Of a stretch of 64,000 nt of DNA, positions 42,831 through 46,607 are shown one piece after another (position 1 is the stretch's first letter; each line of letters opens with the position of its first letter). The stretch is from positions 192,001 through 256,000 of the forward strand of contig CAWDSK010000006.1 of the NCBI GenBank assembly GCA_963804995.1, read 5' to 3'. A program made the translations under genes and the position numbers. A model generated the notes under the pieces. It did no database searches and was not told where the DNA came from. It saw only the letters and a program-made list of their open reading frames with translations. Origin of the DNA: an uncultured Acidobacteriota bacterium (lineage in GTDB: Bacteria > Acidobacteriota > Terriglobia > UBA7540).

Positions 42831-43334
42831 GTGAAATCAGGGGCAACAAATCGGCGGCGAGCGAGTCAGGCCGAAGGGACGCTGACCCGTTCGAGGATCA
42901 GGGCCTGGGTTCTCGCGATAGCGCTCACTTCCCTGCTCGCTCCGGCCGTGCGTGCAGAGCAAACGAAGCCTCTCCCCGCGCTGGAAGGGACTTTGCTGGC
43001 GACGGCCGGCAAGTGTCCCCTGTTGAAGATGCAGGACCGGCAGGTGCCGCTCGCCGCCACAACTCCCTACCTGCTTCAGACCCTTCAGGATAAGCGCCTC
43101 GACGGTTTCCAGATACGCGTGGAAGGAACCCCGCAGCCCGACGGCTCGTTCGAGGTTGCGTGGCTTTTTACCGTCCACAAAGGCAAGCTTTTTCGCGTGC
43201 GCTACTTCTGCGCGGTCTGCAATCTCGTCGGGCTCGGGCCGGGACTCTGCGTCTGTTGCCAGCAACCCACGGAGCTTCAAGAAATCCCTGTGGACAATAC
43301 GGACAAGTACATGCGCCCGGCTTCCCAGCCTTAG
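42831..43334 (+). CDS. Secreted protein with C-terminal Cys cluster (metal-binding ribbon)
   Basis: Signal peptide; YFCAVCN...GPGLCVCCQQPT; start position uncertain. Confidence 0.7.
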   Translation: MKSGATNRRRASQAEGTLTRSRIRAWVLAIALTSLLAPAVRAEQTKPLPALEGTLLATAGKCPLLKMQDRQVPLAATTPYLLQTLQDKRLDGFQIRVEGTPQPDGSFEVAWLFTVHKGKLFRVRYFCAVCNLVGLGPGLCVCCQQPTELQEIPVDNTDKYMRPASQP

Positions 43335-43401
43335 TTGACACCAATCACCACCCAGTGTTACAAAAGAAAGACCGCTGATTCTCAGCGCCACGCGCCAATA
43401 T

Positions 43402-43478
43402 GGTGGGTGTAGCTCAGCTGGTAGAGCGCCAGACTGTGGCTCTGGACGTTGCGGGTTCGAATCCCGTCACCCACCCCA
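43402..43478 (+). tRNA. tRNA-His (anticodon GUG)
   Basis: G-1, GTGGGTG/CACCCAC acceptor, C73, CT-GTG-GC loop, GTTCGAATC, CCA; TTGACA at 43335 upstream. Confidence 0.96.
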
Positions 43479-43641
43479 TCTAACTCGAGCAGATAACGCA
43501 GCGCGGCCGAGCCGCAACCCAAACGAAATCCTCTGCGTCCTCCGTGCCTCTCAAGCTTTAACACAGAGTACGCCCTCCGCTGGCGCATCTCTGAAACCGC
43601 GATGCCGTGTCAAGCCGATTTTTTGAATTTCTTAATCGCCT

Positions 43642-43873
43642 TTGACAAACTTCCCCCTTCGACTTCAGAATGGCCTGCAGCCGGTGAAGCGGAGGCGGGC
43701 TCTGCTGGCGAGCAACCCGCTGAGGAATAGCCGGTCGGAGGCTGATGGAAACGACGCCGGGGCGGCCTGCGGTCGCCCCCCTCCCAAGCTCTGGGCACAG
43801 CTTCCCCATGCCTGAAAAACGCGCCGGACCCCATCGGCAAAGTGGCGGGTTGCCGACTTCGCCGTCGGCTGCC
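43642..43873 (+). ncRNA. Putative structured RNA antisense to the IS110 transposase, with its own promoter
   Basis: TTGACA(43642)-N18-CAGAAT, then hairpins GCGGG-TGCT/AGCA-CCCGC, GGGGCGGCC/GGTCGCCCC and GCCGAC/GTCGGC. Confidence 0.4.
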
Positions 43874-43997
43874 ATTCTGTACGTATTATCTTATAGAATT
43901 ATTCCAAGTTATAGTCGTTCCTCCTTTATGTAGAGCCCGGGGGGCGGGGAGGGTTGGCTCCCCGCCGCCTGCCGGGGATGAAGCACGGCCCCGTGGG

Positions 43998-44187
43998 CGT
44001 TGGGTTCTTGCTCTTGCCATGCGAGTTTGCTGAGTCGGTTCGGTCCCTTTCATCTCTACGGGCTAGCCAGGTTGTCCTGGTCCCCATGAGGTTGTTCGGG
44101 AGCAGGTCCCTATCAGAGCGCGGTCTTGGTGTACCTAGCGCCAGCACGGGCTTCCTGCTCCAGTACGCCGACTTGGCGGCCCCAACG
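43998..44187 (-). ncRNA. Predicted bridge/seek RNA of the IS110 element
   Basis: Nested stems CGTTGGG/CCCAACG, AGTCGG/CCGACT and GAGCAGG/CCTGCTC; loop segments match both target flanks and the donor junction. Confidence 0.75.
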
Positions 44188-45213
44188 GTCTTCCCGATAA
44201 GGGCAGCCGTGCTTCAAAACTCCATACGCACAACGCGCCAAGGAGTGCGCGATGGCGGCCTTGGCCACGTTGGGTTTCTTGCTGCGGCGCAGGCGGTGGT
44301 AGCGCCGCGCGAAAGGATGGGGGTATGGAATCGCGACATGGGCGGCGGTGACGAAGGCCCAGCGCAGCCAGCGCGATCCCTGGCGGGTGATGGGACCCGA
44401 CACCTTCACTTCCCCGCTGTCGTAAAAGCTGGAGACGAGCCCCGTAGCGTTGGCCAAGGCCTTGGCGGAACGAAACCGCTCGATCGTGCCGATCTCACTC
44501 CAAATCACCGGGGACAGGATGGGGCCGATGCTGGGGATTGTGCGCAGCAGCGCCAACTCGGGGAATTGTCCGTCCACCGCCTGCAAGTACTTCTCACTGA
44601 TTCCGATCTCCTCCTCCAGGAACTGCAGCAGGCGTTGGATTTGAGGGATGCTTTCGCCCAAGGGCATCGGCAAGGTCTGTTCCGCCAGCCACTTCTCCCC
44701 GGCCGCTCCGAACGGGTCGGTCCCCGGCGCCTGCAAGCCATGCATCCCCAGCAAGCTTTGCAGGTGATTCTTGGCTTTGGTGCGCAGCAGGGCCAACCAG
44801 CAGCGCTGGCGTGCGCGCAGACGCAGGGCGCGAATCTCCGGCGGCGGAAACCACGCCTCCGGCAGTGGATCCAGATGGTGCGCGGCGAGCTTGCGCGCCA
44901 GCCGCTCGGCATCTAAACGATCATTCTTCTGCCGGCGGTTGCTGTCGATCCCCGCCGTGTGCACCCAGTGCGCGCGCCCTCGCCACCCCGCCTCTTCCAG
45001 CACGCTCATGGCAAAGTAGCCTGCCGTGCTCACCTCCAGGCCGATCTCGGCGTCGGGAGGAAGTTCCGTCAACATCTCCAGCCACTCCTCCCGCGTGTTG
45101 GCGATCGACTTCCGTGCCTTAATCTCTCCGTGATCAAGCTCCACCACCTGGCAACGACGCTTGTGAACATCCACTCCCACCGGCGTTCCAATGGGCGTTA
45201 TACTCTTCTTCAT
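44113..45213 (-). CDS. IS110-family DEDD recombinase/transposase (366 aa)
   Basis: GVDVHK, GLEVS and KNDRLDA (DEDD); TIPSIGPI and DSGE (catalytic Ser), GSRWLR; GAGGAG RBS. Confidence 0.93.
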   Translation of the reverse strand: MKKSITPIGTPVGVDVHKRRCQVVELDHGEIKARKSIANTREEWLEMLTELPPDAEIGLEVSTAGYFAMSVLEEAGWRGRAHWVHTAGIDSNRRQKNDRLDAERLARKLAAHHLDPLPEAWFPPPEIRALRLRARQRCWLALLRTKAKNHLQSLLGMHGLQAPGTDPFGAAGEKWLAEQTLPMPLGESIPQIQRLLQFLEEEIGISEKYLQAVDGQFPELALLRTIPSIGPILSPVIWSEIGTIERFRSAKALANATGLVSSFYDSGEVKVSGPITRQGSRWLRWAFVTAAHVAIPYPHPFARRYHRLRRSKKPNVAKAAIAHSLARCAYGVLKHGCPYREDRWGRQVGVLEQEARAGARYTKTAL

Positions 45214-45464
45214 CGCTTTGTCTCCTCGATGCAAAACTCTCGGTCTGAACCCGAGGGCCCGCTAAACTGGACCACCTCCAGTTTAGCGGCACCCGAGGAG
45301 GCATCGCCGCTTTCATAACATCAGAGCGCAGCTCTGCGATTCACGTGTCTGACCATGCCCGACGGTTTGAGTCAGGAATTCCAACCCGCAAGAAAACGAG
45401 GGCGCACGTCCCAAGATTCGCAAATTGGGAGCCTGAGCCAAAAACATTCACCCAGAATCGGTGC

Positions 45465-46607
45465 TCAATACCCGCGGCGCTTATCCACCACGTTGAGCAT
45501 GGGCAGACCGTTCACATACCGGCGCACGTTTTCAGCGAAGAGCTCCGTGGTTCGACCTTCCACCTTCGGAGACCAACCGGAAGTGTGACACGTGATGATG
45601 ATGTTCGGAGCCGTCCACAACTCATCGTCCGGCGGCAAGGGTTCCTTATAGGCCACGTCCAGTCCAGCCCCCGCGATCCAACCCTCTTTGAGCGCGCGCA
45701 CCAGCGCCGGCGTGTGCACAACCTGGCCCCGCGACATGTTGATGAAGTACGCCGACTTCTTCATGGCCCGGAAGACGGATTCATTCAGCATGCCTTCGGA
45801 AAGCGACGTGTGGGGGGCGGCGCACATCAGGATGTCCACGCGCGAAGCCATCTCCTTAAGCCCGTCGAGCGAGTGCAGCTCCGCCACAAAATGCGGCTTG
45901 GGAATCGGTTTGGGATCCACGGCCAAGATCTTCATATCGAAGCCATAGTGGGCGCGGTAAGCCGTCATCGCGCCGATCCCGCCCAAACCCACCATGCCCA
46001 ACGTCATGCCGCTGATCTCCGTCAGGTCCTGGAGCTGGTTCCACTCGTGGTGCTGTGTCTGGATGGCGTAGCGCGGAATGCCGTGCGCCAGTGACAGCAT
46101 CAAGGCGATGGCGGTTTCGGATATCACGGGCGCAAAGATGCGCTGCATATTGGTCAGCACGACGGGGCTATCTATGAGCTCCGGCCACATGATCTCTTCG
46201 ACGCCCGCCGCTCCCCATTGAATCCAGCGCAGGTGCTTGGCAGCGGCAAAATCTTCGCGGGTGAAATCGCCGAACAAGGCGTGCGCGTCAGCAAGTTCGC
46301 TCCGAAAAGCCTCCTTCGAAAGGGCTTCCTTCAACTCAATTCCTGAGGATAGTGCCCGGATACGCTGGGAATAAGGGTCGGGAAGCTTGTCCATGGTCAC
46401 GATCTTCAACCGCTCCACAGCGGCTCCCTTGCCGGGCTCGACAAGGGGATAAGACTCCATCGTGAGCGGAAACGGCGGATCGAGTGCAGCAGCGGGATTC
46501 GCGGCAGCGAGGGGAACTCCAGCCAGAGTGGTGCCTAGCGCGGCGCCAGTTGATCCGGCGGCGATGTTATGCAAAAACTCTCTGCGGGAAACGGGGTCGA
46601 GTGGCAT
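45465..46607 (-). CDS. D-2-hydroxyacid dehydrogenase with Tat-like leader
   Basis: SRREFL leader; GLGGIG, INMSRGQVV, AGLDV and ITCHTSG motifs. Confidence 0.9.
   Translation of the reverse strand: MPLDPVSRREFLHNIAAGSTGAALGTTLAGVPLAAANPAAALDPPFPLTMESYPLVEPGKGAAVERLKIVTMDKLPDPYSQRIRALSSGIELKEALSKEAFRSELADAHALFGDFTREDFAAAKHLRWIQWGAAGVEEIMWPELIDSPVVLTNMQRIFAPVISETAIALMLSLAHGIPRYAIQTQHHEWNQLQDLTEISGMTLGMVGLGGIGAMTAYRAHYGFDMKILAVDPKPIPKPHFVAELHSLDGLKEMASRVDILMCAAPHTSLSEGMLNESVFRAMKKSAYFINMSRGQVVHTPALVRALKEGWIAGAGLDVAYKEPLPPDDELWTAPNIIITCHTSGWSPKVEGRTTELFAENVRRYVNGLPMLNVVDKRRGY

What the first reader, a model, noticed from the sequence alone, without database searches (positions are those of the whole stretch)
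43998..44187. IS110 bridge RNA whose guide loops match the element's own insertion site
Seen: removing the element (CATC core at 43586-43589 and 45319-45322) rebuilds the target TCCGCTGGCG-CATC-AGAGCGCAG. On the minus strand a hairpin closed by GAGCAGG/CCTGCTC (44100-44160) holds GCTGGCGC (rc of 44138-44145; identical to the left flank 43579-43586) and GCGCTCTGAT (rc of 44112-44121; complementary to core plus right flank 45320-45329), separated by a short GGT/ACC stem. A second loop holds AGAGATG (rc of 44051-44057), matching core plus element end 43586-43592, with a weak 6/9 partner at 44088-44096. Known: IS110/IS1111 recombinases use a bispecific bridge/seek RNA with target- and donor-binding loops. 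Inference: this is a likely uncharacterised, reprogrammable RNA-guided recombinase with its target readable from sequence.
Basis: partly seen in the sequence, partly recalled or inferred. Interest (0 to 1): 0.92.

Follow-up and report, generated by a model that had tools for sequence, protein, structure and literature searches.

The report
IS1111-type bridge RNA with target-matched guides
A mobile element in this soil bacterium carries a short RNA next to its recombinase gene whose two loop strands spell out the DNA site where the element inserts, a known kind of RNA-guided recombinase seen here in a new lineage.

Summary
Window 43586-45322 is a 1,737-bp IS110-family element of the IS1111 subgroup, with its transposase on the minus strand. 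It has a short left end, a 525-bp right end and subterminal inverted repeats. A hairpin at 44161-44099 (minus strand) spans the transposase stop codon. It holds one loop strand complementary to the top strand of the downstream flank and one identical to the upstream flank plus core.

In one element these matches are only weakly above chance. The proof comes from relatives. A second family in the same genome shares the ends and the CATC core but inserts at a different site, and both of its loop strands are rewritten to match. Across 45 distinct insertions, guides track flanks (0 of 10,000 shuffles reach the observed match), and the stems covary.

The donor loop is plausible but cannot be tested, because the element ends do not vary. 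Bridge/seek RNAs of IS1111 elements were described in 2024, so this is a new member of a known kind.

Separately, the right end carries a second, convergently oriented structured RNA domain. It is shared with IS3-, IS21- and other IS110-family elements and has no Rfam match.

The parts
43586..45322 (-). Whole IS (1,737 bp, counting CATC at both ends; one CATC belongs to the target). IS110 family, IS1111 subgroup.
   Evidence: There are 4 copies in the genome with identical boundaries and flanks. Empty sites carry a single CATC.
44113..45213 (-). Recombinase gene (366 aa from ATG 45213; stop TGA at 44115-44113). Motifs GVDVHK, LEVST, KNDRLDA and YDSGE.
   Evidence: Pfam PF01548 at 1.4e-12 and PF02371 at 9.6e-20. 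PDB matches: ISCro4 9t56 at 4.4e-12 and IS621 8wt6 at 1.5e-11.
45214..45322 (-). Left end (109 bp). It holds the core GATG (45322-45319, tnp sense) and the subterminal inverted repeat at 45300-45315. It also has a 13-bp hairpin and a CCTCCTCG segment able to pair with the ribosome-binding site GAGGAG.
   Evidence: Read. The inverted repeat was found by comparison with 43592-43606.
44099..44161 (-). Target-binding hairpin. Outer stem 44161-44154 with 44106-44099, inner 3 bp 44150-44148 with 44110-44108, central hairpin 44135-44122.
   Evidence: Consensus fold and pair counts on 34 distinct RNAs. The outer stem has 6 of 8 pairs with changes on both sides; the inner stem and central hairpin have 1 of 3 each.
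44138..44145 (-). 5' guide GCUGGCGC. It is complementary to the top strand (tnp sense) of the last core base plus the downstream flank CGCCAGC.
   Evidence: Positions +1 to +6 match in 34-35 of 35 insertions, against about 0.5 when flanks are shuffled.
44112..44121 (-). 3' guide GCGCUCUGAU. It is identical to the upstream flank plus core GAU, so it would pair with the bottom strand. It contains the recombinase stop codon.
   Evidence: Positions -2 to -5 match in 34-41 of 42 insertions, against 0.49-0.63 when shuffled.
44050..44098 (-). Candidate donor-binding region. CGAACAAC (44098-44091), a variable covarying hairpin arm (44084-44060), then GUAGAGAUGA (44059-44050). AGAGAUG equals the right-end AGA plus core GAUG.
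   Evidence: AGAGAUGA is invariant in 34 of 34 RNAs, a selection effect since rows were picked by that string. In the arm, 3 of 5 hairpin pairs change on both sides and pair 103-134 shows 4 pair types.
44030..44043 (-). 3' hairpin after the donor region.
   Evidence: Helix at columns 151-154/166-169, with 3 of 4 pairs changed on both sides.
43586..43606 (-). Right-end terminus: core (43589-43586 in tnp sense) and the subterminal inverted repeat 43592-43606. A TTGAC motif at 43610-43614 is invariant in the 29 aligned right ends.
43579..43585 (+). Left target half GCTGGCG (window orientation).
   Evidence: Shared by 4 of 4 copies and by 4 empty sites.
45323..45336 (+). Right target half AGAGC. 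It forms the 5' arm of a hairpin (with the last core C, CAGAGC-GCA-GCTCTG, 45322-45336) in a REP-like repeat.
43642..43671 (+). Promoter-like site TTGACA-18-CAGAAT that points into the element, towards the recombinase gene.
   Evidence: Scores 10 of 12. In relatives both hexamers are kept while the spacer sequence varies.
43678..43741 (+). Accessory 64-nt structured RNA domain (P1, P2, P3) inside the right end. A linker and a GC-rich hairpin (43759-43779) follow.
   Evidence: 97.7% of cells paired, 10 of 15 pairs changed on both sides, 0 of 500 shuffles as high. G-U and U-G are the commonest closing pairs, which points to the + strand as the RNA strand. No Rfam match.

Best explanation
Window 43586-45322 is an active-looking insertion sequence of the IS1111 subgroup of the IS110 family.

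RNA and target recognition. Its DEDD/Ser recombinase is most likely guided by a non-coding RNA of about 150-250 nt, a bridge RNA (seekRNA), made from the 3' end of the recombinase transcript (about 44182 to 44013, minus strand). The first hairpin is an internal loop with two guide strands. [quoted passage not shown] The two matches overlap on the 4-nt core GATG (CATC in window orientation), where strand exchange takes place.

Target site. The target GCTGGCG-CATC-AGAGC lies at the edge of a REP-like repeat.

Donor recognition. A second region (ACAAC ... hairpin ... AGAGAUG) probably reads the joined element ends in the circular intermediate in the same two-strand way.

What is shown and what is inferred. 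Shown here: the anatomy, the boundaries, the guide-flank covariation and the stem covariation. Inferred from the family: that the RNA is made, binds the protein and directs recombination.
For: Family membership: Pfam PF01548 and PF02371; PDB matches to the ISCro4 and IS621 recombinases.

IS1111 anatomy: left end 109 bp, right end 525 bp, 15-16-bp subterminal inverted repeats. These match the subgroup definition in PMC11208160 and PMC11187229.

Boundaries: 4 of 4 copies are flanked by GCTGGCG|CATC...CATC|AGAGC. Four empty 16-mers with a single CATC exist elsewhere.

Natural experiment in the same genome: a second family (58% protein identity) has the same ends and core. It has flanks GGTAGC|CATC...CATC|ACGGT in 4 of 4 copies. 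At the same loop positions it carries GGUAGCC and ACCGUGAUG.

Wider set: from 71 sources (8 own copies, 8 genome loci, 55 metagenome loci), 48 RNAs were parsed, of which 45 are distinct (site plus guides).
- The 5' guide matches 6 or more contiguous flank bases in 33 of 36 insertions, mean 6.06 against 3.03 when shuffled.
- The 3' guide matches 5 or more in 28 of 42 insertions, or 33 of 42 if G:U or G:T is allowed, mean 4.40 against 2.43.
- 0 of 10,000 shuffles reach either observed value.
- There are 13 distinct 5' strings and 15 distinct 3' strings.
- Proteins 79-82% identical to this one carry the other family's target class (L050, L051, L053, L055). Proteins 59-60% identical carry this family's 5' guide (L057-L061).

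Structure: 95.2% of cells paired, 15 of 27 pairs changed on both sides, 0 of 500 shuffles as high; sliding the partner drops pairing to 54% or less.

Order of matches: the top-strand match lies 5' of the bottom-strand match, as reported for ISEc11, ISPa11 and ISKpn4.

Weak expression hint: contigs from one wetland RNA library, from relatives 90-99% alike, cover 43961-44205.
Against: There is no direct evidence of this RNA in this organism. The RNA-library contigs come from relatives, cannot show strand or ends, and DNA carry-over is not excluded.

Within the single element the matches are weak statistically: 8-mers occur in 205 of 300 shuffles and 10-mers in 19 of 300. The fold z-score is -1.72.

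Some insertions fit their guides poorly.
- L022/L052: 0 and 2 exact matches (6 and 4 with wobble).
- L058: 1 and 3.
- L044: 3 on the 3' side.
- L064/L092, L067 and L073: 2-3 on the 3' side.

The shuffle test ignores relatedness, since related elements share both guides and targets.

Donor loop: its left-end partner pairs at only 4 of 5 positions. No variation in the element ends exists to test it.

No promoter-like site for the RNA was found. No Rfam 15 family matches it.
Confidence: 0.88

Rival explanations
1. The hairpin is only a 3'-end structure of the recombinase mRNA, such as a stabiliser or terminator. Its resemblance to the flanks is chance in GC-rich DNA.
For: Matches of 8 nt or more to the rebuilt target arise in 205 of 300 shuffles, and 3 of the 7 8-mer hits lie away from the hairpin in the coding sequence. 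The fold z-score is -1.72.
Against: Both loop strands are rewritten to fit a different target in the second family. They track flanks over 36 and 42 insertions, with 0 of 10,000 shuffles as high. The stems covary while the loop strands vary with the target. There is no run of T after the hairpin.
Confidence: 0.03
2. The protein reads the target. The loop region overlaps the last 13 codons in this family, so changes there would alter a C-terminal tail that contacts DNA.
For: In this family the reading frame runs through the 5' guide and stops inside the 3' guide.
Against: In the second family the stop codon lies before both guides, so they are non-coding, yet they fit that family's target. The tail is absent from that protein. 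Guide matches follow base-pairing rules on both strands, and several mismatches are G:U or G:T.
Confidence: 0.03
3. Only the target hairpin is a guide, as in the 82-96-nt seekRNA model. The second region does not bind the donor ends. The ends are recognised by the protein through the subterminal repeats, or through their flanks by the same hairpin.
For: The short 82-nt seekRNA of ISEc11 sufficed for movement, and the donor flanks had to match the seekRNA. Here the left-end partner pairs at only 4 of 5 positions, and nothing covaries because the ends are invariant.
Against: AGAGAUGA is invariant in 34 of 34 aligned RNAs, but those rows were chosen by that string, so this is weak. ACAAC is nearly invariant, and both flank a hairpin whose sequence is free to vary. 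Their polarity mirrors the target loop exactly. Durrant 2024 reports donor-binding bases in a multiloop for many IS1111 elements.
Confidence: 0.3

Closest known systems
seekRNAs of the IS1111-family elements ISEc11, ISPa11 and ISKpn4 (Siddiquee et al. 2024, PMC11187229; sections 6, 8, 9, 10 and 13 read)
   Same: The RNA lies directly at or after the transposase stop codon. The top-strand match is 5' of the bottom-strand match, and the two matches overlap at the insertion point. Subterminal inverted repeats are present and the longer non-coding region is downstream. The target is REP-like, as for ISPa11. Natural re-direction occurs by replacing the loop bases while the stem is kept, as for ISEc11 versus ISXne4.
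   Different: The lineage is Acidobacteriota. The protein is less than 60% identical to every match in 72,556 plasmid records and at most 33% among the 12 best-ranked places listed. The target hairpin overlaps the last 13 codons. A conserved second (donor-like) region and a 3' hairpin follow. Many guide classes (13 and 15 strings) occur in one narrow clade. An extra accessory RNA module sits in the right end.
IS621 bridge RNA, IS110 subgroup (Durrant et al. 2024, PMC11208160; Hiraizumi et al. 2024, PMC11208158; passages read)
   Same: The logic of two loops, each with two guide strands, is the same. One strand pairs with the top DNA strand and one with the bottom. The core is included in both guides. 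The recombinase has DEDD plus Ser-Gly.
   Different: Here the RNA lies 3' of the gene, not in the left end, and the order of strand matches is reversed. The core is 4 nt (GATG) instead of CT. The donor bases lie in junction strands around a hairpin arm rather than in a simple internal loop. Sequence similarity to IS621 is limited to the Tnp domain (1.5e-11).
ISPpu9 with its Ssr9 small-RNA module (Pares-Guillen et al. 2025, PMC12288879; passages read)
   Same: [quoted passage not shown] That module is dispensable, since some relatives lack it.
   Different: Here the extra RNA is transcribed towards the transposase gene. It has no solo copies of the same type in this genome except two weak model hits. 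It is shared with IS3- and IS21-family elements. Separate end boxes were not looked for.

Membership tests
IS110-family recombinase (DEDD RuvC-like domain plus Tnp domain) | Both Pfam domains, PF01548 and PF02371, are present above their cut-offs. | tested here: met
   48.1 bits (cut-off 29) and 71.2 bits (cut-off 21.3).
IS110-family recombinase (DEDD RuvC-like domain plus Tnp domain) | Catalytic DEDD residues and the Ser-Gly of the Tnp domain (IS621 D11, E60, D102, D105, S241). | tested here: inconclusive
   K-D-x-x-D-A (D98, D101) and S266-G267 align with ISCro4 in the HMMER alignment. D15 and E60 are inferred only from the motifs GVDVHK and LEVST inside the Pfam match. No structure-based alignment was made.
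IS1111 subgroup | Subterminal inverted repeats of 7-17 bp, a short left end and a long right end. | tested here: met
   The repeat at 45300-45315 against 43592-43606 is 15-16 bp with one indel. The left end is 109 bp and the right end 525 bp.
IS1111 subgroup | The transposase groups with IS1111 transposases in a phylogeny. | not tested
   No named IS1111 or IS110 reference proteins were available to build a tree. The listed plasmid hits are at most 33% identical and annotated only as 'IS110 family'.
Bridge RNA / seekRNA | Two loop strands, one complementary to each DNA strand of the target, overlap at the crossover core. | tested here: met
   The 5' guide covers 1-3 core bases and the 3' guide covers 3-4.
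Bridge RNA / seekRNA | Guides covary with target sequence among relatives. | tested here: met
   0 of 10,000 shuffles reach the observed match for either guide. Per-position match is 0.81-1.0 against 0.47-0.65 when shuffled.
Bridge RNA / seekRNA | A donor-binding loop is complementary to the joined element ends. | tested here: inconclusive
   AGAGAUG matches the right end plus core at 7 of 7 positions. ACAAC matches core plus left end at 4 of 5. The ends are invariant, so no covariation test is possible.
Bridge RNA / seekRNA | The RNA is expressed, binds the recombinase and is required and programmable. | not testable with these tools
   The only support is RNA-library contigs of relatives over 43961-44205.
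Any Rfam 15 RNA family | A covariance-model match. | tested here: not met
   At E up to 1, the only hit in 43300-45500 is tRNA.

The most novel reading that the evidence does not exclude
The element carries two RNAs, not one. About 95 nt inside its right end sits a promoter-like site followed by a 64-nt structured RNA domain, transcribed towards the recombinase gene.

The same domain lies about 100 nt inside the end of IS3-family repeats in two genomes (G475, G444). It lies next to IS21-, other IS110-family and Mutator-type ORFs across Terriglobia. A covariance model finds it in 45 of 151 sampled genomes. It has no Rfam 15 match, and RNA-library contigs cover it.

The reading: it is a family-independent IS accessory RNA. 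It could be an aptamer-like domain plus hairpin that sets how much antisense transcription runs into the transposase gene, and here into the bridge RNA. If so it would act as a shared copy-number or condition-dependent brake on transposition.
Probability: 0.35. Interest if true: 0.75.

Novelty: new member of a known kind. Interest (0 to 1): 0.42.

Why it matters
The element adds a well-documented natural series to the bridge/seek RNA systems. One narrow clade of recombinases shares the same element ends and a 4-nt core but carries at least 13 and 15 different guide strings that fit their insertion sites.

The series shows which positions are read: +1 to +6/7 on one side and -2 to -5 on the other, with G:U tolerated at some. 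It also offers an orthologue far from IS621 and ISCro4 for engineering.

It makes several questions testable in one strain that holds two compatible families:
- Whether IS1111 elements use a donor loop.
- Whether two families with identical ends cross-mobilise each other.
- What a guide inside a coding sequence costs the protein.

The accessory RNA in the right end, if confirmed, would point to a regulatory part shared by unrelated IS families.

Tried and rejected
- Rfam 15 scans at E up to 1 gave no family for either RNA. (43300-45500) hit only tRNA; (10 loci) gave two chance-level hits elsewhere.

- The consensus fold proposed a long-range helix, columns 16-18 with 134-136. I preferred 103-105 with 132-134, because pair 103-134 shows GC, AU, GU and UA, whereas 18-134 breaks in L077. 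A closing helix between the region 5' of the target hairpin and the 3' hairpin was considered by eye. It was not consistent across clades and was not counted.

- Junction promoter: with the invariant TTGACA of the right end, the best -10 at the circle junction is GATGTT at an 18-nt spacing, 3 of 6. This was judged by eye only. No promoter-like site for the RNA or the gene was found by the scan.

- Phylum-wide protein search: only distant relatives, 8 of 401 genomes at E <= 1e-40 including the own genome and the unpublished G152. It was not useful for flanks.

- The accessory-RNA region as a small ORF was rejected. The start is not kept in the second family and compensatory changes alter codons (read).

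- The CsrA-sponge idea, based on several GGA motifs, was dropped. No CsrA (PF02599) was found in this 92%-complete genome.

- The Acido-1, Soil-1, Solibacter-1 and Transposase-resistance motifs of Weinberg 2010 were compared by eye in that paper's supplement 5 and are different.

- Folding the right-end module on both strands gave no clear preference by energy.

- RNA-library contigs: parts without cover (43820-43947 and most of the gene in X2-X4) say nothing.

- The search of earlier findings returned nothing.

Full report
1. WHAT IS IN THE SEQUENCE

The region holds one long minus-strand ORF, 44113-45234, with a likely ATG at 45213. It carries both IS110-family domains: PF01548 at 1.4e-12 and PF02371 at 9.6e-20. 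Its nearest solved relatives are the bridge recombinases ISCro4 (9t56, 4.4e-12) and IS621 (8wt6, 1.5e-11). These align over the Tnp domain and include the Ser-Gly. A tRNA-His lies 108 bp to the left.

2. BOUNDARIES

The genome (9 contigs, 7.55 Mb) holds four copies:
- the window copy;
- C3:1484239-1485987, 100% identical;
- C6:1008195-1009963, 98% identical, with the protein match split in two frames;
- a copy on C3 interrupted by 1.1 kb.

All 4 of 4 are flanked by GCTGGCG|CATC ... CATC|AGAGC. The joined 16-mer with one CATC occurs 4 times unoccupied (C3:719975, C3:1456346, C3:1379276, C9:236110). Each time it lies at the start of a REP-like repeat whose right half forms a hairpin. So the element is 43586-45322 with a 4-nt core.

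In recombinase orientation the left end is 109 bp and the right end 525 bp. 15-16-bp subterminal inverted repeats lie 7 and 6 nt from the tips. These are the defining traits of the IS1111 subgroup, whose RNA lies in the right end (PMC11208160 passages; PMC11187229 section 6).

3. IS THE GUIDE MATCH MORE THAN CHANCE?

In this one element it is only weakly so.
- Shuffled interiors give a match of 8 nt or more to the rebuilt target in 205 of 300 trials, and 10 nt or more in 19 of 300.
- The real element has 7 8-mer hits, 3 of them in the coding sequence, away from the hairpin.
- The single-sequence fold is unremarkable, z = -1.72.

The decisive evidence is comparative.

4. A NATURAL EXPERIMENT IN THE SAME GENOME

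A second family has 4 identical copies, 65% DNA identity over the gene and 58% protein identity. Its tips are nearly the same and its core is the same. It sits in GGTAGC|CATC ... CATC|ACGGT in 4 of 4 copies.

At the same place, right at its stop codon, it has a hairpin with the same stems. Its loop strands read GGUAGCC and ACCGUGAUG, which is that family's own flanks read by the same rule. In this second family the stop codon precedes both guides. This rules out a protein-tail explanation.

5. THE WIDER SET

Pattern scans gave 8 loci from genome contigs, all titled Acidobacteriota or Terriglobia MAGs, and 55 from metagenome contigs. That makes 71 sources with the 8 own copies. The ends and the RNA were located by anchors.

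Rows dropped before counting:
- the IS630-interrupted copy;
- L062 and L090, which were false anchors;
- L083, an internal deletion that failed to parse.

This left 48 parsed RNAs, of which 45 are distinct (site plus guides).

Results:
- The 5' guide matches 6 or more contiguous downstream bases in 33 of 36 insertions. The misses are L022, L058 and L086.
- The 3' guide matches 5 or more upstream bases in 28 of 42 insertions, or 33 of 42 when G:U or G:T is allowed.
- Means are 6.06 against 3.03 and 4.40 against 2.43 for shuffled pairings. 0 of 10,000 shuffles reach either observed value.
- Per position, +1 to +6 match in 34-35 of 35 and -2 to -5 in 34-41 of 42. Beyond that the values fall to background.

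The shuffle ignores relatedness. However, guide class does not follow protein similarity. Proteins 79-82% identical to this one (L050, L051, L053, L055) carry the GCTACC-type target. Proteins 59-60% identical (L057-L061) carry this family's 5' guide. Single-base guide changes track flanks, for example ACCGU against ACUGU, GCGCUCU against GCGGUCU, UAGUCU or UCCUCU, and CGUGUCGU in L055.

Poor fits exist and are listed under evidence against.

6. STRUCTURE

An alignment of 34 distinct 170-nt RNAs folds into the following parts:
- an 8-bp outer stem;
- a 3-bp inner stem;
- the two 12-nt guide strands;
- a 3-bp central hairpin;
- a conserved CGAACAAC;
- a covarying hairpin arm;
- an invariant GUAGAGAUGA (with GCAGAGAUGA as a variant);
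- a 3' hairpin.

Over 27 pairs, 95.2% of cells pair and 15 pairs change on both sides. 0 of 500 shuffles are as high, and sliding partners drops pairing to 54% or less.

The top-strand match lies 5' of the bottom-strand match. This is the IS1111 order and the reverse of IS110 (abstract and section 9 of PMC11187229).

7. DONOR LOOP

By the same rule as for the target, the joined ends (right end ...TTTCAGA, core GATG, left end TTATGAAA...) predict a 3' strand ...AGAGAU(G) and a 5' strand ...AUAAC.
- The first is present and invariant in 34 of 34 RNAs. This is partly circular, because the rows were picked by the AGAGATGA anchor.
- The second is present as ACAAC, pairing at 4 of 5 positions. It reads AUAAC in 3 of 34 RNAs.

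The ends hardly vary, so no covariation test is possible.

The literature is divided. Durrant 2024 describes donor bases in a multiloop for many IS1111 elements. In Siddiquee 2024 the 82-nt seekRNA alone sufficed. I put 0.6-0.7 on a donor-binding role.

8. EXPRESSION

No run holds the element itself. Four metatranscriptomes from 3 studies hold small shares.

Laid at 90% likeness, one wetland run gives contigs over 43961-44141, 44035-44141 and 44116-44205. These are contigs of relatives. They show neither strand nor ends, so this is a weak hint only.

No promoter-like site precedes the RNA. This fits processing from the recombinase transcript, as proposed for ISEc11.

9. COMPARISON AND NOVELTY

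The system works like the published IS1111 seekRNAs and bridge RNAs, and it meets every defining feature that sequence can test. Three features were not established:
- a phylogenetic placement among named IS;
- the full DEDD alignment;
- RNA-protein binding.

The protein is far from known plasmid-borne members. All 5,000 best plasmid records are below 60% identity, and the 12 places listed are 31.5-32.8%. No Rfam 15 model matches.

I did not open the supplementary tables of Durrant 2024. They may already list relatives from metagenomes.

Verdict: a new member of a known kind. It offers an unusually rich natural record of re-programming.

10. OUTSIDE THE FINDING: A SECOND RNA IN THE RIGHT END

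The last 240 bp of the right end are more conserved between the two families (74%) than the gene is (65%).

On the + strand there is a promoter-like site, TTGACA-18-CAGAAT, at 43642-43671, scoring 10 of 12. Its hexamers are kept in relatives while the spacer varies. A 64-nt domain follows at 43678-43741.
- On 27 sequences, 97.7% of cells pair and 10 of 15 pairs change on both sides. 0 of 500 shuffles are as high.
- The closing pairs are mostly G-U and U-G, which fits only the + strand.
- No Rfam hit was found.

A covariance model finds 10 places in this genome: the 8 IS copies plus two weak hits. It also finds hits in 45 of 151 sampled genomes of the class. That count includes the own genome and the unpublished G462. 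Among good-quality genomes it is 40 of 135, with up to 11 copies per genome, often at contig ends.

Of 26 distinct places examined, 13 have a transposase-family ORF within 700 nt:
- IS3-type: 8;
- IS21 IstB: 2;
- IS110: 2;
- Mutator fragment: 1.

The RNA runs towards the ORF's 3' end in 10 of these 13 and in the same direction in 3 (L102, L105, L108).

In G475 and G444 the repeated units begin about 100 nt before the domain. This resembles the 94 nt here. The repeated units include IS3-type genes.

Four relatives of this IS lack the module (L062, L063, L076, L086).

RNA-library contigs of four runs cover 43680-43739.

The function is unknown. My guess is control of antisense transcription into the transposase gene. 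This is not tested.

Noticed in passing
window 43642-43779 (+): A promoter-like site is followed by a 64-nt covarying RNA domain and a GC-rich hairpin inside the IS right end, oriented towards the recombinase gene. The same domain lies near the ends of IS3-, IS21- and IS110-family elements in 45 of 151 sampled genomes of the class. It has no Rfam 15 match.
   Followed up: partly
G000:C3:1380792-1381900 (L005 394-1502); equivalent to window 44064/44065: One copy of the IS is interrupted inside the donor-arm hairpin by a 1.1-kb single-copy element (about 1,107 bp from its terminal repeats). That element has roughly 29-bp terminal inverted repeats, a TA duplication, HTH ORFs and a DDE_3 ORF in another frame. 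It looks like an IS630-type element.
   Followed up: partly
G000:C6:2028879-2030594, C6:1339530-1341245, C6:541000-542715, C3:1257902-1259617: A second IS1111-type family (1,715 bp, 4 identical copies) has the same tips and core as the window element but a different target (GGTAGC-CATC-ACGGT). One perfect empty site lies at C1:654657. The identical ends raise the question of cross-mobilisation.
   Followed up: partly
window 45322-45364 and about 25 other places in the genome: A REP-like repeat (GGCTGGCG-CATC-AGAGCG..CAGCTCTGCGATTCACG) supplies the target. The insertion point lies at the foot of its first hairpin.
   Followed up: partly
window 43403-43478 (+): A tRNA-His gene lies 108 bp from the IS right end. 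The stretch 43500-43568 between them is itself repeated elsewhere in the genome at 84-86% identity.
   Followed up: no
G000:C6:1008195-1009963: The 98%-identical copy gives a protein match split into two overlapping pieces (residues 1-171 and 139-366). It is probably frameshifted.
   Followed up: no
window 45214-45322 (-): The left end holds a 13-bp perfect hairpin and a terminator-like hairpin at 45255-45239. It also holds a CCTCCTCG segment that can pair with the ribosome-binding site. This looks like a block on read-in expression of the recombinase.
   Followed up: no
L064 1143-1352 and L065 133-342: A solo copy of the accessory RNA domain, of the variant type seen next to IS3 elements, lies about 65 nt upstream of the left end of a related IS, on the opposite strand.
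   Followed up: no
L133 3047-4063 (G475:C15): A reverse-transcriptase ORF (RVT_1, 1.8e-38) lies next to a shortened IS3-type ORF. It may be a group II intron inside the IS.
   Followed up: no
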